This document shows positions 2,330 through 51,810 of a DNA stretch of 64,000 nucleotides, piece by piece. This DNA comes from Holothuria leucospilota (lineage: Eukaryota). Position 1 is the first letter of the stretch; the number at the start of each line of letters is the position of its first letter. Made by a program: the position numbers and the translations under genes. Location of the stretch: assembly GCA_029531755.1 (NCBI GenBank), contig CM055976.1:6912493-6976492 (forward strand), given 5' to 3'. Under the pieces are notes generated by a model. That model was given only the letters and a program-made list of their open reading frames with translations, did not search any database and was not told where the DNA came from.

Positions 2330-3640
2330 CAACACCTTTTGGTTTCTTGCTTTAGCAAAGGAACCTTTGTAGTCAGGTTGGCGTGTTTGTGTGTGTGTGT
2401 GTCTGTGACGCTTGCTTTGGTACACTGTAACTCAACATGGGAAAGATAGACTAAACTTAAACTTGGTATATGGATGCGTCGTAGTGAGAAGGTGTGCCGT
2501 ATTGTTTTGGGTGGAGGTCATCTGAGGTCACAAGGGGTAAAAAACTGAAAACCTTGTTAACGCGATATCTCAAGTTAGGAAGTTTGGATAGTTTTCTTAC
2601 TTAGTATGTGGATGCGTTGTGGTGAGGGGATAAAAGCTATTGCTTCTGGTGGAGGTCAAAGATCATCTGGGGTCACCGGGGGTCAAACACTGAAAAATTG
2701 TTGTTAACACAGTATCTCAAGGTAGGAAGCTTGGATAGATTTCATACTTAGTATTTGGATGCGTTGTGGTGAGGTGATAAAAGCTATTGCTTTTGGTGGA
2801 GGTCAAAGGTCATCTGGGGTCACCAGGGGTCACACTGAAAACTTGTTGTTAAGACAGTATCTCAAGGTAGGAAGCTTAGATAGATTTCATACTTAGTATG
2901 TGGATGCATTGTGGTGAGGAGATAAAAGCTGTTGCTTTTGGTGGAGGTCAAAGGTCATCTGGGGTCACCAGGGGTCAAACACTGAAAAGTTGTTGTTAAC
3001 ACAGTATCTCAAGGTAGGAAGCTTGGATAGATTTCATACTTGGCATGTGGATGAGTTACGGTGAGAAGATGAATCTTGTCATTTTTGGTGGAGGTCAAAG
3101 GTCATTTGGGGTCACTGAGAGTCAAATACTGAAAACCTTGTTAACACAATATCTCAAGGAAAGAATCTTGGATAGATTTCATACTTGGTATATAGATCCA
3201 CCATAGTGAGAAGCTGTGCCATACAGTTTTTGGTGGAGGTCAAAGGTCATCTGGGGTCACCAAGGGTCAAAAACTGATAACCTGGTTGTTAGCACAGTAT
3301 CTCAATGTAGGAAGCTTGGATAAATTTCATACTTAGTGTGTGGATGCCTTATGGTGGAGAAAATATTTTTTGGTGGAGACCAAAGGTCATCTGGGGTCAC
3401 TGGAGGTCAAACTCTGCAAACGTTTTCAACTCTATATCTCAGTGTAGGAAGCTTGAATAGATCTGCTTTGAGGTGTTGCATTAAATTCAGCAGAAAACCC
3501 ATATGAGTTTTGTCGGATGTCAGAGGTGAAATCACCAGATGCCAAAATGCAAATTCCCAAGAATTTCTAAAGTCAAATATAAGCACAAAACTGTATCATT
3601 CCAACACATTAAGATCACATTCACCCAATGACTGAAAGAT
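2330..3640 (+). repeat. Composite satellite element copy with a GT-rich head, about 7 monomers of the ~147-bp GGTCA satellite (2440-3470), and tail type 2 (3470-3640)
   Basis: Monomer ...ttttggtggaggtcaaaggtcatctggggtcaccaggggtcaaacactgaaaa..ttgttaacacagtatctcaaggtaggaagcttggatagatttcatacttagtatgtggatgcgttgtggtgagg... with a period of about 147 bp (2651 to 2798). Confidence 0.85.
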
Positions 3641-6461
3641 GTGGGACATCTTTCAGAGATGCCAAGTATCTCAATTTTAGTTAAAATTATAGTATTACAA
3701 TTTTAATCCATAATTTTGCCATTATGAAAACCTGCATCAAATACCGCTTTTTAATATTGCAGAAGATTCTCTGCCCACAAAGTAGAGAACTGTCATGAAA
3801 GTTCACTAGACAGACAACATTTGTCCTTTATAAGGACATGTGAGCTTGCAGGAATTGGAAATTGAAATTGATTAATTAAATGCTACTATGGGGTTGTTAG
3901 TTTTATAAAGAGAACTATAAAGTTACTGATCATTTGGATCAGATACCATTGAGCATGCATGAATTGTGATTGCTTCATTGAATAAAACAAATTGTAACTG
4001 TATACTGTCTGAGTTGATATCCCTTGAAGTGTCTGCGTATTTCTTCAGAGCAATTTATTTATGCTTGAATGTGTTAACACAAGATGTGCATTGTCTACAG
4101 AGCAGATTTTGTGCATAGATGAAATACAGGGTAGTCAAAAGTAGCCGGTCACCGGCGGTAAATCGCCGCCTACAGCCTCATTTGCCGCCGCCTACTCTTC
4201 ACTCGATGTCAAAAAAATTTAGTTGCAACCTTCCACTTTTTCTTTTTTTTTCAAATACAATCTGCACATGAATTGATCACATACTTTACTATATCATCGG
4301 TTCTAAAATTGCCAACCCCCAAAAGGGACATCAGTTACAATCCCGTAAAAGAATTGATGATCGGAGATCGCGCACGTGTAAAAGAACTTCCCGCACCGTC
4401 ACTGCCGAAATGCGGGCTGCAGAATAGCATGCACGCATATGCAACTTTGATACTTCAAAGAGTTGGCCTACTGTACACATTACACCGAGCAGCTGCCTTC
4501 AACATGCAGACTACATATATGCGTATTTGTACGTACTGCAGTGCTAATGTCGCACTGAGAGATATTTAATCCCCGCGAAAGGTACATTGACTACATTCTA
4601 ATGTTAAATCAGTTCATTTCGTTCATTCTGCATGCTCACATTGTCATTACAATAAAGATCGGCCACGCAGGCAATCCTTGATTATCACATACACAGTATG
4701 CCGGGCTCGTTAAGAGACGAACTTTCAATTAAAATTTTAACTGTTCGTATCATTTTGAAATAGTTTGCAAAGATGATTTAAACCATCGTTACTCCTTCAG
4801 CCATAGTTAATAGCATGTGTGATCATGTACACGGATTTTTTGACTCCCCAAATGAGGATATTTCAGTCCCAAAATTAACGGTTCGATCGCACATTTGAAC
4901 TACTGCTCTCTGCATATATTTAGTACACAGCATCACTCATTCCAAGAGCAAGACCGTTCGTTGGAACTATCGAAAAGAAAAAGCCCTAAGTGGTCAAGAA
5001 CGGCAAAAGGATTCATATCACATGTATAAAAGACTCTCAAATAACAATCAGTAACATATTCGCACGATTTACTTCGAGAGGTTTTCCTTGCGGGGCATTT
5101 TTCCACAGAGTAGCACTGCACTTTTGCCATTGCCTAACGTGTTATATGCAGGTATGGGCCTACTTTACGAACTTTACCTATAGCTTTATTTCTGAAGTAG
5201 TGATTTTCATGAATTCATACAGGTGCACAGGAGAACAGTGCCCACTGTTTCTGATGTTTTTGTTTTTCACGTGTTACTTAGTGTTTTATTTGTTCTCTTA
5301 TGTATTGTTAAGCAGAGTTTGCTTGTCAGAAGTTGATACAATTAAAGTAAACACTTAGGAGCTTTTTTACATTAGCCTCAATCATAGATGTGTACATAGT
5401 TAGGGGAAAAGGGGCAAATTCAACCTATTATTTTCAGCATATCAATGCCTTCAAACAGGCGTTCACACTAGCACAATGTAGGTTTAGTATGGAATGTATG
5501 TTTCTGGTTTATTGAAGTGGGTGGGATATCATAGGAAGGTACAGAATAAATTTTTCTCCCTAAGACCTTTCAGAATACACAATTAATGCCTTGTATTGGG
5601 TTTTAAGCCACAGGGGTTGGGTACTAGTAGCCTAGCTACCTGGACCTAGCATTGGCTGTGATATTTATGTTCAATAGAAGGGGAGGGGATCCAATAGGAA
5701 TGCACAGAATCGGTAAATTTCTGTACCAAAATTCTGAAATGCAGGCGCCTGAGAAAAATGCCTGGAAGTGGGTTAATTTACATTCATTGGTACCTTTTGT
5801 TAAGGGGATGTATCCTGCCCTACCCATGCATCACGGTCAGGGACTACTTGTTCTTTTACTGTATCACTGTGGAGAGTTGTTCATAGAAAATCGACTAAAC
5901 AGGGAATTTTAAACCCAGCTAGGGGAGGAGTAACTAAACTAAAAGATGGAGGAGAACAGCATTTTTTTAGCTGGAAGTGTATGTCGACAACACCAGCAAT
6001 AATATTTAAAATATTCCTCTAGAAACAGTCTTTTAGGGGCTTATGAAACACTAAAACCTAGGAGCTTCCGGGGGCTTTGCCCCCTGGGCCCCCACCAGAG
6101 TGTTTCCCCTGGGCCCCACTAGGGGCTTTAAGACAGGCCCTGGACCCCACCCGTATGGGCTTCCCGCTTCGCGCTCACCGGGCACGCTACACGTGCACAA
6201 GGTAGTGCTTCCAGGTACGCTGCCTACTTGAGCCTGTGTAGCCTGCTACTCAGAAAAACTTTGACTACCCTGGAAATACTGGTTCATTCAGTAGTTGGCT
6301 CAGTTTCATTACATTCAGCAAGGAACCACAGTGCCCATTGGGCTCATGTTATGTTGTTAAACTAGCAGCACACTTTTGTATTGTAGTACTTGCAACGTCT
6401 TTTAAATGTAGTTGTGCTTTTGATACATGTATTAAATGCTGTAATATGTTTTGTTCCTCAG

Positions 6462-6879: not shown

Positions 6880-7880
6880 AAGGTCAGAACATTGTAAACA
6901 CAAAATCTTAAGAAGGATAACTGTGAGGGATCTCATACTAAGCACGTGAATGGCCCATATTCATGATCGCTACTATTTTTGGTGGATGTCAAATCTCATT
7001 TAGGGTCACAAGAGGTCAAATGGTCAAAAACGTTGTAAATGAGATTTCTCAAAAAGGGTAGCTGTGAGGGATTGCATATGTGGCATGTGGATGGCCAGCT
7101 ATTCAGTAGATGAACACTATTGTTTATGGTGGAGGTCAAAGGCCATTTTGGGTCAACAGAGGTCAAAAGGTCAAAATCCTGTACATATGATATCTCAAGC
7201 AGGGTAGCTGTGAGGGATCTCATATTCCACATGTGGATGGCCCATATTCAGTAGATGATCCCATGTACTTTTTGTGGGCATTTAGGGTCATGAAAGGTCA
7301 AAAGGTCATGATATCTCAAGAAGGGTAACTGTGAGGGATCATATACTTGGCATGTGGATGGCCCATATTCAGTAGATGATCCCTTCTATTTTTGGTAGAT
7401 GTCAAATCTCATTAAGGGTCCTAAGAGGTCAAGTGGTCAAAACCTTTGAAATGAGATTTCTCAAAAAGGGTAATTGGGAGGGATGGCATATGTAACAAGG
7501 AGATGGCCCATATTCAGTCTATGATCTCTTTTATTTTTGGTGGAGGTCAAAGGTCATTTGGAGTCAACAGACGCCAGAAGTACAATTTTTCGGAAAATAC
7601 TGGTAAACGTGGTATCTAAAGCTAGGTAAACAATGGGTATTTCACACTTGACATGTGGATGTTTGATATTGAGAAGATAATCCCTATCGTTTATGGTAGA
7701 AGTCAAAGGTCATGAGTGGTCAAAAGACTAGAACCTTGTGAATGTGATACCTCAAGAAGGATTAATGTAAGAGATCTACTTAAGATGTGGGTGACCCATA
7801 TTTAGTTGATGGCTCTCTTAGTTTGGTGAATGTAAAAAGTCATTTGAAGTGAGTCATCAATGGTCGAAATATGGAAACAT
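6880..7880 (+). repeat. Satellite array, variant B monomers (gggtaactgtgagggatctcatact..gcatgtggatggcccatattcagtagatgatc...ggtggaggtcaaaggtcatttggggtca..agaggtcaaaaggtcaaaa), about 6.5 units
   Basis: Direct reading. It is preceded at about 6808-6835 by a palindrome (acgatagt tgcgtt actatcgt). Degenerate units continue at 8330-8700 and a tail type-1 motif lies at 8925-8960. Confidence 0.75.
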
Positions 7881-9884
7881 GATATTTCAAGAAGGAAAAC
7901 TTGTTTCAATGTCATATGTGGCAGTTAAGTGTGCTCCACATTCATGAGAGAGTCGAAGCACAAGCACAAGTTGAATCATCATTTCACACACGATTGCACT
8001 TGATAGTAATGACTTACGACATCTGCAGGTACAGAAGAATAGAAACAGGCTGTTCTCTTTCACACCCAGACTCCCTTAGAATCTACTTAGTGAATGACCT
8101 ATGACGTAATTCTTTGTTGTCGTGTTGTGTGAGTGTGTACATGCAGTACTGTGACCTTTTTATTGTAGACTGCAGGGAGGAGGTTATAAGCAAACAGCCC
8201 ATTTCCTGTGTGAATGTGTGAGGTTGCTTTTGTATCCTGCAGTCAGTTTTGTTTACTTTAGTCCTAGAATGTAACGCTGTCCGAGAATGTAATGTTCAAG
8301 TCTCGATGTGGTCTCGTCTTGGCATGTTAAGTAGATGATCTTTGTAAGTTTAAGTGATGGCCAAATATCATTTGAGGTGACTAGAGGTCACACTGTGAGA
8401 ACATTGTTAACGAGATAACTTCATGGAAGAAAAACTAAAACACTGAATTTCACAGCTGGTGGTTGGGTGCCTTACATTGATTGCATTTAACCACTAGTGT
8501 CTTTGGTGTAATTAAAAGCTCATTTGAGTTCTGCGGTGGTCAAACTGTGAAAACGTGGTATACTGAGATCTCATAAAGGAATGTATTAGTCTCATACTTT
8601 GCATATGGGTCCCAATATGGAGTGACATCTGTATCATTTATGGTGATGGCCCTTTGTTAGTTGAGGTTACCAGACTTTGTGAAAAGATCCTAAACATGGT
8701 TTGTTATGTTTGTATATGAAACATGTTTGGATCTTTTGTCTGGCATGTAATGGCCAAAATGTATGACCATGTTAACATGAATCAATCTGTTTGGTCTTTA
8801 CCCATGGAAATTTAATGTTTGGTACCTAAATTTATAAAGCACAGTAATTTACAATGAAACTGTGTCAACTTGAAACCACAGTCGTACTACCAATGTATCT
8901 GCATGGTAAGGAATCACTCTATAAGGAATCACTAAGCCTTTTGTCTTTCTGGTTTGCAAGATTGGAAGAAGGAGCACTCATTAAAGTCACTGGCATGGCT
9001 GTCTTATGTTAAAATATTGAAACTGCTGAAGGTATCATGGGAGAATAAAGATCTCCTCCCAACAATGTGGGGCCCTTGAGCCCATCTTAGGGCCACTGGT
9101 AGAGGGGCACTGGTGGAGTCCAGAGGCAATGCCCTGTTGGGGATCCGGGGGAGGGGGAACCCCCAGAAGTCCTGGGGTATTTAGGAAATTGCAAGCATTA
9201 GAATGTTGCTTTAAAGCTTCTTCATATAACATTTGATGGGTACTTAACAGACAATAAAAGTCACAATTTAATAATTTCCAGTTATAGCCGTACTCTGATT
9301 AATAGCTTTCTTGTGTTACATCTAAACAATCCCAATTTTAAAATCTCCAAAATTCACACAGATTGATGTGATAAAAATTAAGTTGCAAATCTCTGAGGAA
9401 AAGCGCCCCCCCCCCCCCCATTGCATGCTTCCATGGCATTAGAATAAAGAGTGCTTTCTAATAAAAGGTCCCTACTAGAGAAATTTGTTTCAACAGAAAT
9501 TAGACATAATGTAAAACTGGTACTGTGCAAGAATAATTTCAATTTTTTGCATGTAATTTTACCAAACAAAAATGTCACAAGTTTTTCTTAAGTATAGTTG
9601 TTATTGGTTGAGAATAGCAGATACTTGTCCCAGTGAAGGAAGGGGAAGGGGGTTAGGTAAGATGGTAACTACTGTATCATGACTTGTTTAGATGGTAGGT
9701 CGTAGATGACTGAATGCATGTGTGTACAAGGCAGCATCTTGCCTGGTGCAACTTTGAATGATCAGCAAACATCATCTAAAGATGGATATTACCAACCAAC
9801 AAGAAAAAGCAAATATCAATATCACTGAAATTATATGGAGAATACAAACACCATAATAGAATACCAAACACCTAAAATATCAAT

Positions 9885-10120
9885 AATCTACATCGCCCCT
9901 CTCTTACCTCCTATTTACCTATGTAATCCCCACTTACCCGCAACTAAACCCTGGTAAACTAATAGCACAGTAGTCAGGGAGGGCGCCCTCCGAGAGGAGG
10001 CCGACCTCCCAAGTCCTCTTCCCACTTACCACCAGATGGTTTGAACGCAACTTTGGCCTTGGTTTTTTCTCCTGCCGATTCCGACTACTGGATTTCCGCG
10101 GGGGACGGATTTTTCCGACT
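9885..10120 (+). repeat. DIRS left inverted terminal repeat (outer ~130 bp strongly matched, similarity decays inward)
   Basis: acatcgcccctctcttacctcctatttacctatgtaatcc...gccgacctcccaagtcctcttcc pairs as the reverse complement with 16890-17030. Confidence 0.6.
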
Positions 10121-15746: not shown

Positions 15747-15749
15747 TCT

Positions 15750-18260: not shown

Positions 18261-18307
18261 TTGAGTCGGTAAAGCTGAAAAATCTGGGCGAGGTGACAAA
18301 GCAATGT

Positions 18308-24662: not shown

Positions 24663-24684
24663 TGATTGTGGTAAGTATATATTT

Positions 24685-29600: not shown

Positions 29601-29611
29601 CATTACAGTAG

Positions 29612-30046
29612 GGTTGGGCAATATTCGATTTTTACTATCAGGATAATAAACCTAGAAATTGTCGCAATATTTTAATAATTACGATAATTTTCCTAAGACA
29701 ATTTCCATGCGAGTTCCATACTGACACTGGAATATTCAGGGTTAAGAATAGTCACCAAATCTAATGACTGCAAATTTGTTTCGTTCTCTCCTTGATGAAA
29801 AGATGTGGAAATGATGAACTTGCCTTGATTTTACATCAGTTCTATGTAATAAAAGAATGCCTTCAATAAGAGAATTATTTTGGAGACAGCAAAATGAAGA
29901 AAGAAACCACATGAGGCAAATCATTTCACATTTTTGCCACAGGGTATTATCATCATTTTCAAATTCTTATTATCGTATTGTCTTGCAAAACAAATTATCG
30001 CGATAACGATAATTTTTGATATAAGGCCCAACCTTACATTGCAGTG
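29612..30046. mobile_element. Insertion of about 435 bp inside a satellite monomer, bounded by GGTTGGGC...GCCCAACC
   Basis: The satellite monomer sequence (gatgcattacagt / ttacattgcagtgagaag) is split and partially duplicated on both sides of the insert. The ends are an 8-bp inverted repeat. Confidence 0.35.
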
Positions 30047-36329: not shown

Positions 36330-37450
36330 GGTGTATCCCTTGTGTGTGCGTGTGTGTTTGTGTATGTGATGCTTTGCTTTTAAACAGGAAGTCTTGAGAG
36401 GCGTAAGCTTGAGATCTCATACTGGACATGTGCACACCCCATATTGAGTAGATGATCTCTGTTGTTTTTAGTGGAGGTCAAAGGTCACCTGGGGTCACCA
36501 TAAGTCAAACTATAAAAGCAATGAAGAAAAACTTGTAGACAGGATATCCCGAAAAGGGAAATTTGAATTATACGTTCATAGTTGGATGTGGATATAGCAT
36601 ATTCAAGTTTAAGTAGATGATCACTACTAATTTTTGGTGAAGGTCAAAGGTCATTTGGGGTCACCAGAGGTCATATAGCTTGAAAACTTTTCACAAACTC
36701 AGTATCTCAAGGTGGACAAGCTTGAGGGATATGATACTTGCATGTAGGTACTACATGTTGAGATGGTGATCCTTATTGTTTTTGATGTAGGTCAGTGGTC
36801 ATCTATGGTCACCAGAGGTCATATTTTTAAAATCTTAAAACTTGCTTGTAAACATTTAATTTCCAGATGGGTAAGGGTAAGGGATCTCATATTTGCCATG
36901 TGAATACTTCATACTGATCAGATGATCCTAAAGATTTTTGTGTAGGTGAAAGGTCATTTGGTGACACTAGAAGTCAAAATGTGGAAAATGGTGTTGATAT
37001 GATATCTCAAGAAGGAAAATGTATACGAATCTCAGTTTCCCAGTTGGGTTTTCTGCATTGATCATATGGTTTCTATAATGTTTGGTGGAGGTCAAAGGTC
37101 ATTTGGGATAAGTAGAACTCAAACTGTAGAAACTATGATAATTGTTTTTTTATAATACATGATATCTCAAGATGGGTAACATTGGTGGATCTCATGTGGA
37201 CACTCCATATTGATTAGATGATCTCTATTGTGTTTGGTGGCCAGGGTCAAAGGTTACTTGAGCTCATCAGAGGTCAGAACTGTGAAAACTTTGTAAACAT
37301 CATTTAAAGAAGGGAAACTTCAGTTAAGCTCATACAGGTTTGTGAGTGCCCCACATTAAGTAGAAATAAGTTCAAGATTTTGATGGTTTTGTTAGAGGTC
37401 ATTTAGGTTCACAGAAGTCCAACAGGAGGAACCTTTAATAACTGCCTGAA
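36330..37450 (+). repeat. Satellite array (GT-rich head remnant plus about 7 diverged B-type monomers)
   Basis: gtgtgcgtgtgtgtttgtgtatgtgatgctttgcttttaaacagg...ggtggaggtcaaaggtcacctggggtcaccataagtcaaac, repeating with a period of about 150 bp. Confidence 0.7.
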
Positions 37451-38202
37451 AATCCAATATCGCAAGATACATATTCAGTGAGGGACCTTAAAATCTTGAT
37501 GTGATATTTGAAGTTAAGGAAAATGTCCATTTGAATCTCATATTTGGAGGCATGTATACTCCATATTGAGGTCAGTAAATATTTTATTATTTGATATTTC
37601 GTTAAAAGGTAGCTAGGACTTTATTTCCTTTATTTTGCATTTGTCAACATGTTAAAACCTTTATTTTATATTATACAACCTTTCAAAAAACCTTTACTTT
37701 GTTGAAAAGGCTGTGGGAGCAGTTTAAATGTAAAATTCATGATTTGAAAGTCAGAGTACTTATATACTTTAAGAGCTAAGGAATCACTTAATCCTTTGCA
37801 TGCTCTTTGTGATATTTGATACTTCAGTTTAAGACCCTAGTCAGCAATTTGGCTTCTCTTTTTTGGTTTCAGTAATAAGAGCAACTTTTGAATTCATGAT
37901 GATGTTTGTTTGTGACAGAGTTTTGGTTGGTTAGGGTGTGTACGTATAACACTTTGCTTGTAAGCTCACTATTTCAAGGAGGATCTAGCTGAGAGATCTG
38001 TGCACAGCATATTCAGACCCACAATACTACTGGGACAAAAAAATTGGGAAGGGCCACTCTTTACTCTAGTCATTACTCTCTCATTGTAACATTCCTGTAT
38101 CTGCCTTAGTGTCCAGCAATGATTTGTTCTATTATGGACAGAAGGAACTGCAACGTGTTGTCATTTCTGTAATAGACCTTTAGGGGGAAACTCTCACCAT
38201 TT

Positions 38203-40611: not shown

Positions 40612-41473
40612 TTTTTTTGATTCCTTGCCGAAGGCCGAAGGAATCTATGCAATGGTGATGTCGTGTGAGTGTGGGTGCACTCACAAACGTGGCCTTAGCA
40701 GGTACCAGGGCAGCCGGCGAGAGCTCTCCTAGCTTACGCGTGGCTCAATTGGCGTAGCAGCCCGAAAATTCGGTCACTGCGAAGAGAAATTACATACACG
40801 CAGCTGCAGGTGTTTGCCTTGGAGTGCAGCCCGCCCTCAAGCACGTCCGTCTACTCGGCTCCTTCTGGGGCAGCTTCACTGCTGGGAATTTCCCTTGCAT
40901 TCCCTACGGGGTCCTTTGCCAGTACCTCATAAGGCATCGAGTGTGCATGTGGGTATGTGTGTGTGTATGTGACACTTTTGCTTGTAAACACGATATCTCA
41001 AGAAGGGTAACTCTGAGGGATCTCATACTTAGCCTGTGAATTGCCCATATTGAGTAGATGATCTCTATTATTTTTGGTGGTCAACGGTCATTTGGGGTCA
41101 CCAGAGGTAGAAAGGTTAAATCCTTGTGAACACTATTTCAAGAAGGTTAAATGTGAGGGATCTCATACTAAGCATGTGGATTGCCCATACTGTGTAATTT
41201 TTTGTGCAGGTCAAAGGTCATTTGAGGTCATTTGAGGTCAAAACCTAGTAAACATGATATTTTAAGGAGGATAAATATGAGGGATCCCATACTTGGCCTG
41301 TGGATTGTTTATATTTAGCTTGTAGGTCATTTTTGGGTGACAAGATTTCAGAAGCTTTTGACCTTATTAACATGATATCTCAAGTAGAATAACTGTGTGG
41401 GATCTCATACTTGATTCATGTTTGTACAATATATCCATATGGCAAGGAATCACTAAGCCTTTTGGCTTTCTGG
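40612..41473 (+). repeat. Complete short composite element holding a hairpin head (gattccttgcc..ggaaggaatc) with the ~255-bp inserted segment at 40688-40945, 3 B-type monomers and tail type 1 (41437-41473)
   Basis: Head ttttttgattccttgccgaaggccgaaggaatctatgcaatggtgatgtcgtgtg. Tail ggcaaggaatcactaagccttttggctttctggt. Confidence 0.7.
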
Positions 41474-43101
41474 TGAGGCTAAATAGTTTCAGATGTAGTT
41501 CTAGGGTGGCCATGCATCTGACTTTTTGCCAGATTGTCCAGCTTTTGGGCAGCTTGCCCACTGTTGGGTGTTATTTGATGCCAGACATTGATTTGTCCTC
41601 CTTTTTGGAGGTCTGCAAGATCACAGTGAAAATCTTTTAGGTAATATGAAGGAAAAGATAAATCAGAATTGAATTCATACCTATCACATAAAGCTATTGT
41701 GATGTGAAAATTGATTCTGCAGATATATCTCAAAATATTAGCAGTATTCTGATCAGCCACATTCTGTGCGCTTTCAAAAGTAGTAGGTTGTGACAGTTTT
41801 CCAAAACTTTATACAAGGATATCACATAAGAAGGTAGCATAAGAAGTTCTGTCTGAACCATGTTTTGATCTCAGCGTATTGCATGTGGCCAGTATTGTAG
41901 AAATGAATGCTGTGTCAACCCAAATAATTTTATGCAAAGCAGCATTGGTGTTGAAGATGCAATTGTACTTACAAAAAGTTCAGTTTGAGACCAGCATTAC
42001 TGATATTAGATGAATGGTTGGTGTGAAAGTATGAGTTGAATGCTTAGGCTTATTGCAAAGATTTGTTGACACCTCAAGCCATTTGCGTAGGGGACGGAGA
42101 TGAGGGATTAGCTCTTCTTGCAAAATTTTTGGCCTCAATGAAAGAAAATTTCAAGTCACCGTTGCCTTAATACATTTTAAAAATTTCACTCTCTTAAAAG
42201 ATGTTTGCCCCCGACCCCTTAATGCCTTGTCTGGCTATGGGCCTGTGACATGCATCTGTGATTGAGAATTTCTCCCTTATTTCATTTTTCTTAAAACTGT
42301 CACTGTAACCTTTAAGAAGTGTTTCTCTTGCTGAGTCCAAGGATGTGAGATCAGAGTTCATTTAAGGCTTTTTCACCCACAACTAACAATGGATCTTCTT
42401 TAAAGTTGGTCAGAGTAACTCTTGAATAGTGACACAGATAAGGTGTACAAGAACTTTTCATTTGGGCCTATGTATGTTTGTCTGAAATAAGGTAAAACAT
42501 TTTTATACGTCACGGATACATCAGATTTGCAAATGACAGTGCTAAATGATGAACTGCTTTAAGTTCTGTTTGACACATACATTGCTTGAGGGAATGATTC
42601 TGTTGGCATCATAATTCATCATCATGCATGAGTTGTAAAATTATTTGCTCTACTGGGAACTGTGTATTCTAAGTTCCTTTTGGCACCAGAGAGCTAATGC
42701 CAGATTGTTTACTAACTGTAGTGTTGTATATTGTGTGTAAAGACCAGAAGCTACTGGACTTTTAGATGATGCAAGGAGTTGTGATTAAAAGGAGATCTAG
42801 CAGTTTTTGGTTTCGATGAAAAGAGAAACCTATGCAGTCATGATGGCATGTGTGTAAATGTGTGCATGTGTGTGTGAGTGGTGAGTGAGTGTACTTACTT
42901 TCCATTCAGATTGAGGACCTAAACAATGGATTTCAGGTCCTTAGAAGGAAATACAATAGATTTCTCATGTCCTCAGAAGTTTAACAATGGACAGTCTATT
43001 GTTAAAGTTAGGGTTAAGGAAGCAAACACAATAGAGAAAACAATGAGGTCCTCAAACAGTATGTAAAGCACAACTGTGTGTGTGGGTGTGTGTATGTTTG
43101 T

Positions 43102-43167
43102 GACACTTTTTGATTCCTTGCCGTAGGCAGGCAAGGAATCTATGCGATGGTGATGTCGTGTGTGTGT

Positions 43168-43198
<31 letters not shown>

Positions 43199-45391
43199 GG
43201 TGCGTGTGTGTGTGTATGTGTGTTTGTGACGCTGCTTGTAATCGCGATATCTCAAGATAGGATTGACCAACACTTTTCATATTTGGTATATAGATTTGTC
43301 ATGTTGAGAGGAAGAACCCTATTGTTTTTGGAGGAGGTCGAAGGTCATCGGAGGTCACCAGAGGTCAAAAACCGAAAACCTTGTAATCGCGTTATCTTGA
43401 GATAGGGATGACCGACACTTTTCATATTTGGTATATAGATTTGTCATGTTAAGAGGAAGAACCCTATTGTTTTTGGTAGAGGTCAAAGGTCATCTGAGGT
43501 CACCATAGGTTAAACTGCAAAAACCTCGTAAATGGCTTGTAATCGCGCTATCTTGAGTTAGCGATGACCGACACTTTTCATATTTGGTATATAGATTTGT
43601 CATGTTGAGAGGAAGAACCCTATTGTTTTTGGTGAAGGTCAAAGGTCATTTGAGGTCACCGGAGGTAGAAAGCCGAAAAGCTCGTAATCGCGATATCTCA
43701 AGATAGGAATGACAGACAATTTTCATATTTGATATATAGGTTTGTCATTTTGAGAGAAAGAATCCTATTGTTTTTGGTGGAGTTCAAAGGTCATTTGAGG
43801 TCACCAGAGGTGAAAGACCGAAAACCTTGAAATCACGATATTTCAAGATAGGAGTGGCCTGTATGGATTTGTCGTGTTGAGAGGAAGAACCCGATTAATT
43901 TTGGTAGAGGTCAAAGGTCATCTGAGGTCACCAGAGGTCAAAAACCAAAAAACCTTGTAATCGGGATATCTCGAGATAGGGATGACCGACACTTTTCATA
44001 TTTAGTATGTAGATTTGTCATGTTGAGAGGAAGAGCCCTGTTGTTTTTGGTGAAGGTGAAAGGTCACTTGGGGTCACCGGAGTTAAAAAGCCGTAAAGCT
44101 TGTTAATCATGATATCTCAAGATAGGAATGACAGACACTTTCATATTTGGTATATAGACTTGTTATGTTGAGAGAAAGAATCCTATTGTTTTTGATGGAG
44201 GTCAAAGGTCATTTGAGGTCACTAGAGGTCAAAGACCGAAAACCTTGAAATCGCCATATGTCAAGATGGGAATAGCCTATATAGATTTGTCATGTTGAGA
44301 GGAAGAATCCTATTGTTTTTGGTAGAGGTCAAAGGTCATCTGAGGTCACCAGAGGTTAAACTGCAAAAACCTTGTAAATGGCTTGTAAACACGATATCTC
44401 CACATAGCAATGACCGACACTTTTCTTATTTGGTACATAGATTTGTCATGTTGACAGGAAGAAGCCTTTTGTTTTTGTTGAAGGTCAAAGGTCATTTGAG
44501 ATCACTGGAGGTAAAAAGCTGAAAAGCTCATAATTATGATATCTCAAGATAGGAATGACCGACACTTTTCATATTTGGTATATAGATTTGTCATGATGTA
44601 AGGAAGAACCCTATTGTTTTTGGTGGAGGTCAAAGGTCATCTTGGGTTACCAAACGTCAAAAAGCAAAATTTCCCAAGATTTCCCAAGATTGTAATCTAG
44701 CATCACAGGGGTCAAAAGCATCATTTCCCAAGAATTCCCAAGATTGTTATGTGGGGTCACCAGAGGTCAAAAAGCAAAAATTCCCAAGATTGTTATATGG
44801 GGTCACCAGAGGTCAAAAAGCAAAATATCCCAAGAATTCCCATGATTGCAATCTGGCGTCACTGGGGTCAAAAATCAACATTTCCCAAGAATTCCCAAGA
44901 TCATCATCTCGAGTTATCAGAGGCCAAAAAGCAAAAGCAAAATTTCCCAAGAATTTCCAAGGTTGTTATATGGGGTCACCAGAGGTCAAAAAGCAAAATA
45001 TCCCAAGATAATGATATGGGGTCACCATTGGTCAAAAAGTGAAATTTCCCAAGAATTCCCAAGATAGTCATCAGGAGTCACCAGAGGTCAAACAGCAAAA
45101 TATCCCAAGTATTCCTAAGATCGTCATCTAGGGTCACCAGAGGTCAAAAAGCAAAATTTTCCAAGAATTTTCAAGATCCAAGATCCATTGGAGTTGAATC
45201 CCTTTCAAGACACTTCAGTTTTTCTCTTTTGTTATATTTGGTGGGGTTCAAAGGTCATGTGAGGTCAGCAGAGGTCAAATTGTTAAAACATAAAATGATG
45301 TAGTCAAGAAAGATTAATTTGAGGGATAAACCTCAGTGCAACAAAACGTCCCCATTCGGCAAGGAATCACTAAGCCTTTGGGCTTTCTGGT
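43102..45391 (+). repeat. Complete composite element (2.3 kb) with a perfect 11-bp-stem head hairpin, (GT)n, 9 C-type monomers (43260-44640), a 55-60-bp sub-repeat block (44640-45180) and tail type 1
   Basis: Head gattccttgcc-gtaggca-ggcaaggaatc (43102-43130). Tail ...cctcagtgcaacaaaacgtccccattcggcaaggaatcactaagcctttgggctttctggt (ends 45391). The tail carries ggcaaggaatc, so the two ends form an 11-bp terminal inverted repeat. Confidence 0.75.
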
Positions 45392-46650
45392 CTTGTTTAC
45401 ACAATATCTCAAGAAGGGAAACTCTGACAGTTCTCAAAGTTGGTAGGTAGATGCCCCATATTGAGAGGAAGAACCCTAATATTTTTGGTGGAGGTCAAAG
45501 GTCATTTGGGGTCACCAGGGGTCAAACTCTGAAAACCTTGTTTACACTATATCTCAAGTTAGGAAGCTTGGACAGATTTCTTACGTGGTATGTGGATGTA
45601 TTATGGTGAGAGGAAGAATCGTATTATTTTTGGTGGAGGTCAAAGGTCATTTGGGGTCACCAAGGGTCAAACTCTGGAAACCTTGTTTACACGATATCTC
45701 AAGGTAGGAAGGTTGGATAGATTTCATACTTAGTGTGTGGATGCATTATGGTGAGAGGAAAAACTTCTATTTTTGGTGGAGGTCAAAGGTCATTTTGGGT
45801 CACCAGGAGTCAAACTCTGAAAATCTTGTTTACACAGTATCTCAAGTTAGGAAGCCTGGATAGATTTCATACGTAGGATGTATATGCATAATGGTAAGAG
45901 GAAGAATGCTACTGTTTTTGGTGGAGGTCAAAGGTCACGTGGGGTCACTAGGTATCAAACTCTGGAAACCTTGTTTACATGATATCTCACAGTAGGAAGC
46001 TTGGATAGATATCATACTTGGCATGTGGATGCGTAATCTTCAGAGGTACAAGCATATTAATTTTTGGCGGAGGTCAAAGGTCATTTGTGATTACCAGGGG
46101 TCAAAGTCTGAAAACCTTGTTAACAGGACACCTCGAGGTAGGAAGTTTAGATAGATTTCATACGTAGTTTGTGGATACCTTAAGGTCAAAGGTGGAACCA
46201 TATCATTTTGGGGGGGAGGTTAAAGGTCAAATGGGTTCACTGGGGTCAACCTCTGAAAAGCTTGTTAGCATGATATCTCAAGGTAGGAAGCTTGGATAGA
46301 TTTCATGCATAGTATGTGGATGACTTATGGTGAGAGGAAGTACCCTATTTTTTATGGTGGAGGTCAAAGGTCATCTGGGTTCAAACTCTGAAAACCTTGT
46401 TTACAAGATAGCTCAAATTAGGAAGGTTGGATACTTCCCATGGTGTTGCATTTAATCCATCAGAAAACCCCTGTAAATTTTGTCAGAAATCAGAGGCCAG
46501 CTGAAATTACCAGAGGCCATTAAGCAAAAATGCCCGAGAATTCCCAAGGTCAAATATGAACATGAAACTGTAATTTTCCAGCACTTTAAGATCACATTCA
46601 ACCAATGACTGAAAGAAACAGGACATCTTGGCATTTTTATGGATTACACA
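45392..46650 (+). repeat. Satellite array (A-type monomers, 45400-46420) plus tail type 2 (46420-46650)
   Basis: Monomers ...ggtggaggtcaaaggtcatttggggtcaccaggggtcaaactctgaaaaccttgtttacac.atatctcaag.taggaagcttgga.agatttc.tac... The tail is related to 3470-3640. Confidence 0.8.
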
Positions 46651-48392: not shown

Positions 48393-49659
48393 GTTATTAC
48401 TCATCCCATGACTGGTGGGTTGTCGGCGCCACAAAACCGAGCAACCCCCGTGTTTGTACCCACTGTGAGCTGGGGGTTGTAGAATATGCCCACGGTTTCC
48501 CCCGCCTGTCGTAAGAGGCGACTGAAGGGGAGGACTTGCACTGCACTCGAACTGTATTTGAAACCAAACTTGAATCGTATTTATCTAGTTGACACTATAT
48601 AACACATTCGTGTTGGTGTGTCGTTAAATCCAGAGATGCCAACAATTACGATTTTGCCTTAATGATTACGATTTTTACACTGGTATTACGCCATTACGAT
48701 GATGTGCCAAAATCTTACCATTTGCGGAACATAAGGTGTGTTAATATCCTTACAGGCTTTTATTAATAATCCTTGTTCATGTAAGCCTATTTACGTTTTG
48801 CAAGTAAAACTGTAAAACAAGGAGTGTTTAAAATGTATAATTAAAAACCCGGTTGGAGATCAAAAAAGAAAGATTAAAAAGATAGAAATCCACTCATTGA
48901 TTCGCGTTATGTGATGGTAGGAGTTGCAGTACGGACACATTTTTGAATCGCATACGTACAATGCATCATTCATGTGCGTAAAAGTTAGCAAAATGAAACA
49001 CGTGTGCAGCATAGGCTGTAGAATACATACACAACATACGTTAGGATATGCAGTGCAGCTGTGCAATGTCCGTTTCCGTGTACTGCAGTTCGGTGTCTTT
49101 GGTCTTTGGCTGGCGTACGTAAAATCGCCGTTCTACTGTACAATCATTTTTCATGCACTATACTGTACAGTGTGTGCTATGTTATGCCGTATCAAATCAT
49201 ACATGGACAGGCGTACGGAGTGAGATCCGTTGCAACAAGATGAATAGCCTGGGTTTAAGTATCGTAACTTTTTAATGTCATAGACAGAGAACAGCGTTCT
49301 GTGTGTATTATGGATATTTTTCAGAAGAGTTATATGAAAGAAATTAAGGGAAATTGAAACACATCATTGCGGTTACTTTTGCGCAAGGCCATGGTAACGA
49401 TGGGCCGAGAAAATTGTCAAGACCCAGAAAGAGTTACGTACAGCCTAAACAATCGTTGCAAGTAAGGGCTGTTACTTTATAGTTTGTAAAGGACTGGACT
49501 ACCGTACCGCGCGGCTCAGAATTTGAGCTAGGATTGAAGTACAGGCTGACTTATTTATTCCCGATTTTAACGATGGTTTTGTTTGACATTTTTTATGTGA
49601 ACAATAAGTCATAAAATCAGTTTGTACCAAAATATGACCATGTAAACGTAAATGAATTT

Positions 49660-51810
49660 TTGGTTTCGATGATAAGAGAAACCTATGCATTCATGACGGC
49701 GTGTGTGTATGTATGTGTGTGTGCGTGTGTATGTGTGTGTGTTTGTGACACTTTGCTCGTTAACACGATATCTCAAGAAGGGAAACTCTGACAGTTCTCA
49801 AACTTGGTACATAGATCCCCCATATTGAGAGGAAGAACCCTATTGTTTTTGGTGGGGGTCAAAGGTCACCTGGGGTCACCGGGGGTCAAACTCTGAAAAC
49901 CTTGTTAACACAATATCTTGAGTTAGGAAGCTTGGATGAATTTCATACTTTGTATGTAGATGCGTTATGGTATGAGGAAGAACCCTATCATTTTTGGTGG
50001 AGGTGAAAGGTCATCTGGGGTCACCAGGGGTCAAACCTTGAAAACTTCGTTAACACGATATCTCAAGAAGGGAAACTCTGACAGTTCTCAAACTTGGTAC
50101 ATAGATGCCCCATATTAAGAGGAAGAACCCTATTGTTTTTTGGTGGGGGTCAAAGGTCACCTGGGGTCACTGGGGGTCAAACTCTGAAAACCTTGTTAAC
50201 ACAATATCTTGAGGTAGGAAGCTTGGATGAATTTCATACTTTGTGTGTAGATGCATTATGGTATGAGGAAGAACCCTATCATTTTTGGTGGAGGTGAAAG
50301 GTCATCTGGGGTCACCGGGGGTCAAACCTTGAAAACTTCGTTAACACGATATCTCAAGAAGGGAAACTCTGACAGTTCTCAAACTTGGTACATAGATGCC
50401 CCATATTGAGAGGAAGAACCCTATTGTTTTTGGTGGGGGCCAAAGGTCACCTGGGGTCACCGGGGGTCAAACTCTGAAAACCTTGTTAACACAATATCTT
50501 TAGGTAGGAAGCTTCGATGAATTTCATACTTTGTATGTAGATGCGTTATGCTATGAGGAAGAACCCTATCATTTTTGGTGGAGGTGAAAGGTCATCTGGG
50601 GTCACCGGGGGTCAAACCTTGAAAACTTCGTTAACACGATATCTCAAGAAGGGAAACTGTGACAGTTCTCAAACTTGGTACATAGATGCCCCATATTGAG
50701 AGGAAGAACCCTATTGTTTTTTGGTGGGGGTCAAAGGTCACCTGGGGTCACCAGGGTTCAAACTCTGAAAACCATGTTAACATGTTATCACCAGGTAGGA
50801 AGCTTGGATGAATTTCATACGTAGTATGTAGATGTGTTATGGTAAGAGGAAGAACCCTATTTTTTGGTGGGGTCAAAGGTCACCTGGGGTCACCAGGGGG
50901 AAACCTTGAAAACCGTAACAAATATCTCATGAAGGGAAAGCTTGACAGTTCTCAAACTTTGTACATAGATGCCCCATATGAGAGGAAGAACCCTGTCATT
51001 TTTGGTGGAGGTCAAAGTTCCTGGGGTCACGGGGTTAAACTCTGAAAAACTTGTTAACACGATATCTTCCAGGTAGGAAGCTTAGATTTCATACTTTGTA
51101 GTGTAGATGCATTATAGTGAGAAGATGAATCCTATTGTTTTAGTGGAGGTCAAAGGTCATCTGGGGTCACCAGAGGTCAATGTCTGAAAACCTTGTCAAG
51201 ACGATATCTCCAAGGTAGGAAGCTTGAATAGAATTTCATACTTGGTAAATTGATGTGTTATAGTGAGAAGATGTACCCCTATTTCTTTTGGTGGAGGAAA
51301 AGGTCATCTAGGGTCACCAGGGGTCAAACACTGAAAACCTGTTTTAACACAGTTTCTCAAGGGAGAAAGCTTAGATAGTTTTATACTTTAGTAATGTAGA
51401 TGTGTTATGGTGAAAAGATGGACCCTATTGTTGGTGGGGTTGTGGTAGGTCAAACCGGTAACACAATATCTCACAAGGTAGAAGCAGTTTCCATGTGTTA
51501 TAGTAAAGGTCAAAAAAGCAAAATTTCCCAAAGTTAGATTTCCCATAGACTACATGTAGAATACAAAACTGTATTTTTCCAACATGTCAAGATAGCATTT
51601 GTCACATTGGTAAATTGATGACTGTTTTTGGTGGAGTTGAAAGGTCTCTAGGGTCACCAGGGTCAAACAAGATAGGGGACATCATATAGGCAAATTTCGC
51701 CAGAATTATAAATGGAATACAAAGAACATGTTAAAATAGCATCATCGATATGGGACCTCAATGCATATCATGCACCTCAATGCATTTTTGCATTCTGGTT
51801 AATATGTACT
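49660..51810 (+). repeat. Composite satellite element with a head hairpin (ggtttc-gatgataaga-gaaacc, 49662-49683), (GT)n, a ~290-bp higher-order repeat x4 that is nearly identical (49763-50925), degenerating monomers, and tail type 2 (51500-51810)
   Basis: acacgatatctcaagaagggaaactctgacagttctcaaacttggtacatagat recurs at 49763, 50053, 50344 and 50634, so the period is 290-291 bp and each repeat is a dimer of about 145-bp monomers. The tail ends ...caatgcatttttgcattctggttaat. Confidence 0.85.

What the first reader, a model, noticed from the sequence alone, without database searches (positions are those of the whole stretch)
2440..51500. Every satellite monomer carries a canonical DR1 plus two DR4-spaced nuclear-receptor half-sites, and all arrays point the same way
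The monomer core is gAGGTCAaAGGTCAtctgGGGTCAccagAGGTCAaa. It holds a perfect AGGTCA-n1-AGGTCA direct repeat, the classical DR1 element bound by RXR, HNF4 and COUP-TF-type receptors. After a 4-nt spacer comes GGGTCA, and after another 4-nt spacer comes AGGTCA (DR4 spacing).
There are well over 100 monomers in 64 kb, so this region is a very dense block of consensus receptor half-sites.
Every one of the 12 or more arrays has ggaggtcaaaggtca on the plus strand and none is inverted. Most arrays sit in the putative introns of the plus-strand FG/Pro-rich gene.
The uniform orientation is statistically unlikely for independent insertions. It suggests strand-biased insertion or retention relative to transcription, regional segmental amplification, or a single progressively fragmented super-array.
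Basis: partly seen in the sequence, partly recalled or inferred. Interest (0 to 1): 0.6.

Follow-up and report, generated by a model that had tools for sequence, protein, structure and literature searches.

The report
Same-direction cluster of repeat-carrying rolling-circle transposons
The "satellite" arrays are the internal tandem repeats of about 15 copies of a small non-coding rolling-circle transposon (a known kind, here in a sea-cucumber-type genome); the receptor-like GGTCA motif is real and is the best-conserved part of the repeat, and all copies do point the same way, but there is no evidence of receptor binding and the cause of the shared direction is unresolved.

Summary
The sequence observation largely holds. 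A ~145-bp monomer carries RGGTCA-n1-RGGTCA-n4-RGGTCA-n4-RGGTCA, and every copy is on the + strand (101 of 101 profile hits; RGGTCA 244 on + against 19 on -). Two claims are overstated. There are about 72 core blocks, not "well over 100" monomers. The DR1 is intact in only about half of them, and all four half-sites in 22%.

The arrays are not a free satellite. They are the central tandem repeats of HINE/DINE-1-type non-autonomous Helentron-like elements. The layout is a 5' T-run, an 11-12-bp subTIR, its inverted repeat, a (GT)n microsatellite, 145-bp repeats, 56-bp repeats, a 3' subTIR, a palindrome, and a terminal TTCTGG|T. Two terminal subfamilies and at least three monomer subfamilies are present.

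Homology stops at the element ends, so these are independent insertions. That rejects a fragmented super-array and a segmental duplication. The same termini occur in three unrelated metagenome contigs. Monomer ORFs match about 280 "hypothetical proteins" of Holothuria leucospilota.

The GGTCA block is the best-conserved part of the monomer, but receptor binding is untested. The uniform orientation (about 15 of 15, while other TEs here lie on both strands) is real and unexplained. This is a new member of a known kind and of moderate interest.

The parts
2337..3652 (+). HINE copy E1. It has a 5' T-run and subTIR-like hairpin, (GT)n, 8 monomers (2421-3503) and a 3'-truncated right flank.
2945..2977 (+). 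Representative intact core block, AGGTCA-A-AGGTCA-TCTG-GGGTCA-CCAG-GGGTCA (DR1 plus two DR4 spacings).
6886..8953 (+). HINE copy E2. Older group III monomers lie at 6886-7942 and 8354-8613. The A-type 3' end reads ...AAGGAATCACTAAGCCTTTTGTCTTTCTGGT. The 5' end was not identified.
24085..24338 (+). HINE copy E3, truncated. It has an A-type 5' end (TTTTTGATTCCTTGC..GAAGGAATC), (GT)-rich tract and 1.5 monomers.
24683..26620 (+). HINE copy E4, complete B-type. It runs 5' TTATTGGTTTCTATGATAAGAGAAACC, arrays at 24744-25339 and 25869-26461 split by a ~530-bp foreign insertion, 56-bp repeats at 26316-26483, and 3' ATCATCGAAACCTCAATGCATTTTTGCATTCTGGT.
28913..30390 (+). HINE copy E5, B-type. It holds a 278-bp spacer module (28939-29216, shared with E9), monomers at 29255-29609, 56-bp repeats at 30088-30248, and a 3' palindrome plus TTCTGGT.
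30480..33079 (+). HINE copy E6. It has a degenerate A-like 5' end, monomers at 30555-31145, a partial monomer at 32921-32972 and an A-type 3' end at 32978-33079. It starts about 90 bp after E5 ends.
36277..37469 (+). HINE copy E7. It has an A-like 5' end and 8 old group III monomers. No 3' end was found.
37861..37946 (+). Solo B-type 5' flank (E8), TTTTGGTTTCAGTAATAAGAGCAAC..TGTGACAG, with no array after it.
40614..41474 (+). HINE copy E9, complete A-type. It runs 5' TTTTTGATTCCTTGCC..GAAGGAATC, spacer module 40673-40939, (GT)n, about 4 monomers, and 3' GGCAAGGAATCACTAAGCCTTTTGGCTTTCTGGT.
42804..46646 (+). HINE copy E10, the outer B-type element. Its 5' end is at 42804 and its monomers are at 45391-46441. 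The right flank (46532-46646) is 3'-truncated. E11 interrupts it at the (GT)n/array junction.
43107..45391 (+). HINE copy E11, a complete A-type element nested in E10 in the same orientation. It has a perfect 11-bp subTIR/IR hairpin, (GT)n at 43158-43228, 10 group II monomers, 56-bp repeats at 44636-45177, and a 3' subTIR plus palindrome at 45359-45391.
49657..51799 (+). HINE copy E12, complete B-type and the youngest copy. It has (GT)n at 49701-49747, 11-12 monomers forming a 290-bp two-monomer higher-order repeat (96-99% between alternate monomers), and 3' CTCAATGCATTTTTGCATTCTGGT.
56513..59676 (+). Three old, degenerate arrays (E13 56513-56844, E14 58560-59024, E15 59483-59676). They lie outside the finding's stated range and are all on +.
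27709..28272 (+). Context only: an FG-rich host coding exon with a ...ctccctcAG|G acceptor and a CAG|GTGAGA donor. Its junctions are conserved in an orthologous genomic contig (L001).

Best explanation
The window holds about 15 independent copies of one family of non-autonomous, Helentron-type rolling-circle transposons (HINE/DINE-1/pearl-like). The host is a holothurian-type echinoderm genome.

Each copy has the same layout:
- a 5' T-run
- an 11-12-bp subterminal inverted repeat (subTIR) and its nearby complement, forming a 5' hairpin
- a (GT)n microsatellite
- 2-12 tandem 145-bp repeats
- often a short array of 56-bp repeats derived from the monomer core
- a right flank carrying the 3' subTIR
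- a short palindrome
- the end TTCTGG|T

The 'satellite arrays' are these central repeats. The four RGGTCA units form a short iterated box at the 3' end of each natural repeat unit. It is the least variable part of the family. Related elements (pearl, DTC84, PERI) are also reported to have such low-variability segments.

Shown: the element anatomy, the independence of the copies, the strand uniformity, and the conservation of the box.

Inferred: the elements were mobilised in trans by a Helentron-type Rep/helicase.

Inferred, weakly: the uniform orientation reflects a strand-polar process acting over a long time on this region. One form is integration of the single-stranded transposon into one particular strand, set by replication or transcription direction. 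Another is orientation-dependent retention inside a + strand transcription unit. Duplication is not the cause. The resemblance to DR1/DR4 receptor sites is a sequence match whose function is untested.
For: Anatomy:
- Many arrays start at monomer column 52-54, right after (GT)n-TGTGAC.
- 5' ends are TTTTTGATTCCTTGCC-n7-GGCAAGGAATC (type A) or TTTTTGGTTTCGATGA-n-GAAACC (type B).
- 3' ends are GGCAAGGAATC-ACT-AAGCCTTTTGGCTT-TCTGGT (A) or ATCATCGAAACC-TC-AATGCATTTTTGCATT-CTGGT (B). Each 3' subTIR is the reverse complement of its 5' subTIR.
- The hairpins fold.
- This matches the published HINE/DINE-1 definition (PMC4067079; PMC7492417).

Independence of copies:
- There are at least 3 monomer subfamilies and 2 terminal subfamilies.
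- Flank homology of 77-92% ends at the element termini.
- One copy is nested in another.

The family exists elsewhere:
- The same termini and monomers occur in JACSEG010049578.1 and in two Tara scaffolds.
- 283 protein hits were found, almost all H. leucospilota 'hypothetical proteins'.

Orientation:
- 101 of 101 monomer hits, 11 of 11 5' flanks and 9 of 9 3' flanks are on +.
- DIRS and LINE elements on + and Penelope and LINE elements on - show that other TEs lie on both strands.
- T-runs and A-runs outside the elements are equally frequent, so target availability is symmetric.

Box conservation: 0.91 against 0.77 and 0.72. There is no codon periodicity.
Against: - No autonomous Helentron is in the window, so the partner, and the choice between Helentron and Helitron2, is unproven.
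- TT insertion without a target-site duplication could not be verified with an empty site.
- In the oyster, Cg_HINEs integrate in both orientations genome-wide. I found no paper reporting a Helitron or HINE orientation bias.
- The polar-insertion or retention step therefore rests only on this one locus.
- Monomers within an array are not independent samples, so conservation of the box is partly shared ancestry.
Confidence: 0.8

Rival explanations
1. The RGGTCA box is a working nuclear-receptor platform (COUP-TF, HNF4, RXR or TR2/4-type receptors). The transposon has spread receptor response elements through the genome, and this locus is a dense regulatory block.
For: - There are perfect DR1 and DR4 geometries, 244 half-sites on one strand, and 0 expected by chance.
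- GGTCA pentamers are more conserved than the spacers. The first base stays a purine in at least 94% of monomers, which fits the RGGTCA degeneracy.
- The box survives in diverged copies.
- There is a precedent for TE-borne receptor sites: HNF4alpha sites in Alu repeats (PMC3252374).
Against: - No binding, chromatin or expression data exist here.
- Only 22% of cores keep all four half-sites and 50% keep the DR1. This looks like decay after insertion, not maintenance at this locus.
- A conserved box near the repeat junction is a general trait of this TE class, and its sequence is unrelated in other families (PMC3879986).
- A to G variation at the first base is also what a transition bias would give.
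Confidence: 0.1
2. The box serves the transposon. It would be an iteron-like array of direct repeats spaced about one helical turn apart, bound by the Helentron Rep/helicase, as in geminivirus or plasmid rolling-circle origins. Alternatively it is the slippage or recombination hotspot that sets array length.
For: - It is the most conserved segment across subfamilies and across contigs.
- It sits at the end of the natural repeat unit. Arrays begin at column ~52 and end after column ~50.
- It is the part kept in the 56-bp repeats next to the 3' end.
- DTC84, pearl and PERI repeats likewise keep a low-variability segment near the unit junction.
- Monomers also contain TTTTTGGT, the first 8 bases of the B-type 5' end.
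Against: This is an analogy only. No Helentron Rep binding site is known to me. GGTCA does not occur in the terminal 40 bp at either end. No autonomous copy was available for comparison.
Confidence: 0.15
3. The uniform orientation is a by-product of instability or of chance. Closely spaced inverted copies of 1-3-kb arrays would be lost through hairpin- or recombination-mediated deletion, so only head-to-tail neighbours survive in a dense cluster. Otherwise this is simply a 1-in-1000 locus picked out by a scan.
For: - The elements are clumped. E5 and E6 are 90 bp apart, E3/E4 and E7/E8 are under 400 bp apart, and E11 lies inside E10.
- HINEs make up 29% of the window.
- The window was selected for being striking, so some winner's curse applies.
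Against: - Several neighbours are 1-15 kb apart and only 60-80% identical. That is weak substrate for inverted-repeat instability.
- The bias holds for old and young copies alike.
- p is about 0.002 even when only 10 clusters are counted.
Confidence: 0.2
4. The arrays descend from a single super-array later broken up by insertions, or from tandem segmental duplication of one array-bearing segment.
For: - All arrays share one orientation.
- Some arrays are indeed split by later insertions, for example E4 at 25339-25869.
- Two ~195-bp segments lie at similar distances upstream of E5 and E9.
Against: - Each array has its own 5' and/or 3' transposon terminus, of two different types.
- There are at least 3 monomer subfamilies at 60-72% identity to each other.
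- E4 and E12 share 91-93% monomers and 89-92% left flanks, yet no homology exists beyond the termini.
- The sequence between the two 195-bp segments and the arrays is non-homologous.
- Those segments are copies of a MITE. An orthologous contig provides an empty site for one of them.
Confidence: 0.03

Closest known systems
Cg_HINE elements of the Pacific oyster, with the related pearl (Crassostrea virginica) and DTC84 (Donax trunculus) elements: non-autonomous Helentron elements carrying satellite-like central repeats
   Same: - The modular plan is the same: a left flank with 5' subTIR, complementary IR and microsatellite; short arrays (2-12 copies) of 140-180-bp repeats in fixed orientation relative to the flanks; and a right flank with 3' subTIR and palindrome.
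- Ends are T-rich, and flank and repeat modules are shuffled between families.
- Copies lie in and near genes, and the repeat has a segment of reduced variability (PMC7492417; PMC3879986).
   Different: - No sequence similarity to these elements was found or could be tested, because their consensus sequences are not held in the library.
- The microsatellite here is the dinucleotide (GT)n, where the oyster elements have mostly 4-nt motifs such as GTCY (3-8 nt overall).
- A second 56-bp repeat derived from the monomer core is present.
- The conserved box is four RGGTCA units.
- The host is a holothurian.
- Oyster elements are reported in both orientations genome-wide, whereas here 15 of 15 share one orientation.
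DINE-1 / DINE-TR1 / PERI of Drosophila, and HINEs of mites and mosquitoes (Thomas, Vadnagara & Pritham 2014)
   Same: The defining set is shared: ~13-bp subTIRs a few bases from the 5' end, an IR 3-22 bp away, a microsatellite, central repeats, a 3' stem-loop, and a preference for TT or T-rich targets (PMC4067079).
   Different: The 3' subTIR lies about 24-34 bp from the end and the palindrome 6-7 bp from the end. That is somewhat closer than the 38-60 bp and 8-35 bp quoted for mite HINEs. No autonomous partner was seen here.
[quoted passage not shown]
   Same: This is an echinoderm precedent. Later authors list Tsp among DINE-1-like or pearl-like elements that contain tandem repeats.
   Different: The original papers are not in the held library, so neither sequence nor structure could be compared.
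Nuclear-receptor sites carried by interspersed repeats (HNF4alpha sites in human Alu; PMC3252374)
   Same: A high-copy mobile element carries consensus AGGTCA-type direct repeats and so seeds many potential receptor sites.
   Different: For Alu, binding was demonstrated experimentally. Here only the motif exists. The carrier is a DNA transposon's internal tandem repeat with four half-sites per 145 bp.
IS200/IS605 (IS608, ISDra2): bacterial HUH single-strand transposons
   Same: They belong to the same broad enzyme class (HUH endonuclease, single-stranded intermediate). Their genomic orientation follows the direction of replication because they insert into the lagging-strand template (PMC5371812). 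This offers a mechanism that would give one orientation across a replicon.
   Different: They are bacterial and use Y1 transposases without a helicase. I know of no evidence for such polarity in eukaryotic Helitrons or Helentrons.

Membership tests
HINE / DINE-1-like non-autonomous Helentron elements | No coding capacity | tested here: met
   Elements are 0.9-2.3 kb, apart from E6 (2.6 kb, with internal non-monomer sequence) and the outer E10 (3.8 kb, with E11 nested in it), and hold only short stop-bounded ORFs. Monomer conservation shows no codon periodicity. There are no Pfam hits other than those in unrelated retroelements.
HINE / DINE-1-like non-autonomous Helentron elements | 11-13-bp 5' subTIR a few bases from the 5' terminus, matched by a complementary 3' subTIR | tested here: met
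   Type A has 5' TTTTT-GATTCCTTGCC and 3' GGCAAGGAATC. Type B has 5' TTTTT-GGTTTCGATGAT and 3' ATCATCGAAACC. The match is exact in the best copies. The same 3' ends occur in L005 and L006, and the same type A 5' end occurs in L002.
HINE / DINE-1-like non-autonomous Helentron elements | Short inverted repeat 3-22 bp downstream of the 5' subTIR (a 5' hairpin) | tested here: met
   In type A an 11-bp stem with a 7-nt loop folds at -11.8 kcal/mol, z = -5.7. In type B a 6-bp stem with a 10-nt loop folds weakly, z = -1.6.
HINE / DINE-1-like non-autonomous Helentron elements | Microsatellite at the end of the left flank | tested here: met
   A (GT)n-rich tract ending in TGTGAC[AG] lies before the first repeat in at least 9 copies, and also in L002.
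HINE / DINE-1-like non-autonomous Helentron elements | Central tandem repeats in one fixed orientation relative to the flanks | tested here: met
   All monomers, left flanks and right flanks are on the same strand in the order LF-array-RF. The same order holds in L002, L005 and L006.
HINE / DINE-1-like non-autonomous Helentron elements | Palindrome or stem-loop close to the 3' terminus | tested here: met
   AAGCC-TTTT-GGCTT (A) and AATGCA-TTTT-TGCATT (B) lie 6-7 nt before the end, at seven 3' ends.
HINE / DINE-1-like non-autonomous Helentron elements | Insertion at TT or T-rich sites without target-site duplication | tested here: inconclusive
   Elements begin with a variable T-run and end in ..CTGGT, followed by T in 4 of 7 cases. 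No duplication is visible at the termini. The nested copy E11 fits insertion at TT in the E10 junction, but only after allowing a 2-nt difference from E12. No true empty site was available.
HINE / DINE-1-like non-autonomous Helentron elements | Termini shared with an autonomous Helentron (Rep/helicase plus AP endonuclease) in the same genome | not testable with these tools
   There is no RepHel ORF in the window. A Helitron2-type partner cannot be excluded.
Canonical Helitron (HLE1) | 5'-TC ... CTRR-3' ends, one 3' hairpin, no terminal inverted repeats, insertion between A and T | tested here: not met
   The 3' end CTGG would fit CTRR. However, the 5' end is a T-run and not TC, paired subTIRs are present, and there is a hairpin at each end.
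Classical satellite DNA | Long homogeneous arrays (tens of kb or more) not embedded in a mobile element | tested here: not met
   The longest array in a single element is about 1.7 kb (E12, 11-12 monomers). The 3.2-kb merged block at 43234-46441 is two nested elements plus 56-bp repeats. Each array is bounded by transposon flanks.
Nuclear-receptor response element (DR1 / DR4) | RGGTCA direct repeats with 1-nt or 4-nt spacing | tested here: met
   There are 36 DR1 and 80 DR4 arrangements, all on +.
Nuclear-receptor response element (DR1 / DR4) | Demonstrated receptor occupancy or receptor-dependent regulation | not testable with these tools
   No binding or chromatin data are available. No paper containing the monomer sequence was found.

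The most novel reading that the evidence does not exclude
Helentron-type rolling-circle transposons may integrate their single-stranded copy into one particular strand of the target: the lagging-strand template at a fork, or the displaced non-template strand of a transcribed gene. All insertions within one replication or transcription domain would then point the same way, as IS608-family elements do in bacteria. On this reading the 15-of-15 same-strand cluster, built up over a long period by several subfamilies, is a fossil record of that polarity. HINE orientation could then be used to read replication or transcription polarity from an animal genome sequence.
Probability: 0.15. Interest if true: 0.7.

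Novelty: new member of a known kind. Interest (0 to 1): 0.4.

Why it matters
- It reclassifies an apparent "receptor-site satellite" as a family of tandem-repeat-carrying rolling-circle transposons. The same class spreads satellite-like arrays through oyster and Drosophila genomes. This extends the class to sea cucumbers, where the family looks very abundant.
- It exposes an annotation problem. About 280 "hypothetical proteins" of Holothuria leucospilota match spurious ORFs in these repeats.
- Two points deserve follow-up, and both can be tested on existing chromosome-scale Holothuria assemblies.
  - The best-conserved part of the repeat is four consensus RGGTCA units. It could serve the transposon (Rep binding or array dynamics) or the host (receptor sites).
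  - Copies of different ages all share one orientation over 57 kb. If that holds genome-wide, it would be the first sign of strand-polar integration by a eukaryotic HUH transposon.

Tried and rejected
- **Literal sequence searches of the paper library** for four monomer fragments, for JACSEG accessions and for the SRR run found nothing.
- **Exact-product look-ups** of two window ORFs found nothing, so the source genome is not indexed.
- **Collection scans with the core pattern:**
  - Metagenome contigs gave 1 contig, which was useful
  - Genome contigs gave 0
  - Viral contigs gave 0
- **A genome-wide orientation test failed.** The H. leucospilota proteins found with the monomer-ORF profile are not in the gene-position index. 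Only short Tara scaffolds could be fetched.
- **Two 21-kb Apostichopus japonicus loci** contain no copy of the family. The sample is too small to mean much.
- **A coding explanation for the conserved core was rejected.** The 145-bp period is not a multiple of 3, stops occur in all frames, and there is no third-position signal.
- **A uni-strand (flamenco-like) TE cluster was rejected.** DIRS and LINE elements are on +, and Penelope and another LINE are on -.
- **Target asymmetry was rejected.** T-runs and A-runs outside the elements are equal in number.
- **Segmental duplication of 27.4-29.6 kb against 39.1-41.5 kb was rejected** by global alignment. The shared 195-bp piece is a MITE.
- **Rfam and tRNA scans** found nothing in the arrays.
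- **The Tsp papers of 1985** could not be read.

Full report

Tandem Repeats Finder reports arrays of about 145 bp across the window. Exact AGGTCAAAGGTCA occurs 27 times, always on the + strand, with none expected in dinucleotide-preserving shuffles.

An iterated nhmmer profile of the monomer, which searches both strands, gives 101 hits at E<=0.01, all on +. Relaxing to E<=100 adds only three marginal minus-strand hits near 56422-56659.

Half-site counts:

| Motif | + strand | - strand |
|---|---|---|
| RGGTCA | 244 | 19 (roughly background) |
| DR1 | 36 | 0 |
| DR4 | 80 | 0 |

The consensus is GGTGG-AGGTCA-A-AGGTCA-TCTG-GGGTCA-CCAG-GGGTCA-AAC.

Two statements are too strong:
- There are 64 near-full-length monomers and 72 core blocks, not "well over 100".
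- Only 36 of 72 cores keep an intact DR1, and 16 of 72 keep all four half-sites.

**2. What are the arrays?**

Many arrays begin at the same monomer column (52-54), directly after a (GT)n tract ending in TGTGAC[AG]. Upstream of that tract lies a conserved left flank of two types:
- Type A: TTTTT-GATTCCTTGCC-n7-GGCAAGGAATC
- Type B: TTTTT-GGTTTCGATGA-taaga-GAAACC

Downstream, arrays end in a partial monomer (columns 1-50). This is often followed by 56-bp repeats that keep the last two half-sites, then a conserved right flank.

The right flank ends in one of two ways:
- Type A: GGCAAGGAATC-ACT-AAGCCTTTTGGCTT-TCTGGT
- Type B: ATCATCGAAACC-TC-AATGCATTTTTGCATT-CTGGT

The 11-12-mers near the 3' end are the exact reverse complements of those near the 5' end. 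The 5' hairpin and the 3' palindromes fold as expected.

This is the published definition of DINE-1/HINE elements, point by point: 5' subTIR, nearby IR, microsatellite, central repeats, 3' subTIR, 3' stem-loop and T-rich ends (PMC4067079). It also matches the Cg_HINE elements that carry satellite-like arrays in the oyster (PMC7492417).

The canonical Helitron definition (5'-TC, no inverted repeats) is not met.

**3. Are the copies independent?**

nhmmer maps 11 left flanks and 9 right flanks, all on +. These define about 15 elements:
- Five are complete: 24683-26620, 28913-30390, 40614-41474, 43107-45391 and 49657-51799.
- The A-type copy at 43107-45391 is nested inside the B-type copy at 42804-46646.

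Monomers fall into at least three subfamilies. Group I arrays are 77-84% identical to one another. Groups II and III are 60-72% identical to group I. Three further arrays are old and degenerate.

The youngest copy, E12, has a 290-bp two-monomer higher-order repeat with 96-99% identity between alternate monomers. E4 shares this repeat at 91-93%. Even so, homology between E4 and E12 stops exactly at the 5' terminus.

A global alignment of the only candidate duplicated segment shows random-level identity between the shared pieces. The shared 195-bp piece is a MITE. An orthologous contig provides an empty site for it.

The fragmented super-array and segmental-amplification readings are therefore rejected. 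The copies entered separately, over a long period (flank divergence 8-25%).

**4. Organism and distribution**

The DIRS-like element in the window finds its best named relatives in Holothuria leucospilota and Apostichopus japonicus, then in a sea star and a crinoid.

A profile of the recurrent monomer ORF finds 283 proteins. Almost all are "hypothetical protein HOLleu_..." of H. leucospilota, on chromosome-size contigs. The ORFs are spurious: the period is not a multiple of 3, stops occur in every frame, and there is no codon periodicity.

Three unrelated metagenome contigs carry the same family with the same termini: JACSEG010049578.1 and two Tara scaffolds. Echinoderm precedents (the Tsp elements of the sea urchin) are cited in the literature, but the original papers could not be read.

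**5. The GGTCA box**

Across 64 monomers, conservation is as follows:

| Region | Conservation |
|---|---|
| 20 GGTCA positions | 0.91 |
| Spacers | 0.77 |
| Rest of the monomer | 0.72 |

The first base of each half-site is a purine in at least 94% of monomers. In the diverged JACSEG copy the box is nearly intact, while the rest of the monomer is visibly much more diverged in the alignment.

Related elements (DTC84, pearl, PERI) also keep a low-variability segment near the unit junction, though with unrelated sequences. Conservation could thus serve the transposon.

The box lies at the end of the natural repeat unit. It is also the part retained in the 56-bp repeats next to the 3' end.

Whether it binds a host nuclear receptor, the Helentron Rep protein, or nothing is untested. 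The decay of half the DR1s at this locus argues against maintenance here.

**6. The uniform orientation**

About 15 elements, or 10 clusters on a conservative count, are all on +. That gives two-sided p of about 6e-5 to 0.002.

Several explanations can be set aside:
- Other TEs in the window lie on both strands, so this is not a uni-strand TE cluster.
- T-runs and A-runs outside the elements are equal in number, so target availability is symmetric.

At least one bona fide + strand exon (27709-28272) lies among the elements. Its splice junctions are conserved in an orthologous contig. The elements are therefore in sense orientation to that gene.

In the oyster these elements are reported in both orientations genome-wide. 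I found no report of an orientation bias for Helitrons or DINE-1.

Bacterial HUH single-strand transposons do align with replication direction (PMC5371812). This makes strand-polar integration a plausible but unproven cause. Orientation-dependent retention within a transcription unit, and loss of closely spaced inverted copies, remain as alternatives.

**7. Verdict**

The feature is a new family of a known kind of element. The conserved four-unit RGGTCA box and the same-strand cluster are the two aspects worth a follow-up.

Noticed in passing
window 9774-17134 (+): A DIRS-like tyrosine-recombinase retroelement about 7.3 kb long. It carries gag-like, RT/RNase H and YR ORFs (10774-15746). Its inverted terminal repeats (9903-10036 against 17008-16876) are 97% identical, so the insertion is young. 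It also accounts for the GC-rich block at 10-16 kb. Best named relatives are in Holothuria and Apostichopus.
   Followed up: partly
window 19398-20967 (-), 22901-23602 (-), 61027-63269 (+): A Penelope-like element (RT plus a GIY-YIG ORF) lies on the minus strand. A LINE 3' part (zf-RVT) also lies on the minus strand, and another LINE lies on the plus strand. Retroelements here are therefore on both strands, unlike the HINEs.
   Followed up: partly
window 27468-27662 and 39191-39386 (+): Two copies (78% identical) of a ~195-bp MITE. Its terminal inverted repeats are CAGGGAGTAATT... and ...AATTATTCCCTG, and it has an internal palindrome. Comparison with the orthologous contig L001 shows an empty site and an apparent 5-bp duplication (TAATC). 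Each copy lies about 1.25 kb upstream of a HINE, apparently by coincidence.
   Followed up: partly
Holothuria leucospilota proteins P0093-P0212: About 280 annotated 'hypothetical proteins' (52-110 aa) of H. leucospilota match translations of the 145-bp HINE monomer. They look like gene-prediction artefacts in repeats.
   Followed up: partly
window 54466-55658: A 312-bp unit is repeated 3.0 times at 99% identity (54628-55551). It is bracketed by long (TA)n tracts on both sides. A ~190-bp sequence next to it (55637-55830) recurs inverted at 18527-18718, again beside a (TA)n tract.
   Followed up: no
window 18306-18382 (-): A tRNA-like sequence (Rfam tRNA 39 bits; ARAGORN gives an odd anticodon) sits between two (AT)n microsatellites. 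It may be the head of a tRNA-derived SINE.
   Followed up: no
window 28939-29216 and 40673-40939 (+): A ~275-bp spacer module lies between the left flank and the microsatellite. It is shared by a B-type copy (E5) and an A-type copy (E9). This is module shuffling between HINE subfamilies, as described for oyster elements.
   Followed up: partly
window 40022-40447 (+): A proline-rich ORF (PPPPPPPRGGGRPAPLP...) with splice-site-like borders on the + strand. It may be another host exon. It has no Pfam hit and was not searched further.
   Followed up: no
monomer consensus columns 1-75, for example window 2940-3015: In the sense orientation each monomer contains an acceptor-like ttgtttttggtggAG|G and, about 65 nt later, a donor-like CTCAAG|GTAGGA. 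Sense-strand intronic copies therefore carry exon-like units, which makes their exclusive sense orientation to the FG exon more puzzling.
   Followed up: no
L005 1360-1470: In a Tara scaffold a HINE 3' end lies about 80 bp upstream of, and in the same orientation as, the start of a protein-kinase-like ORF.
   Followed up: no
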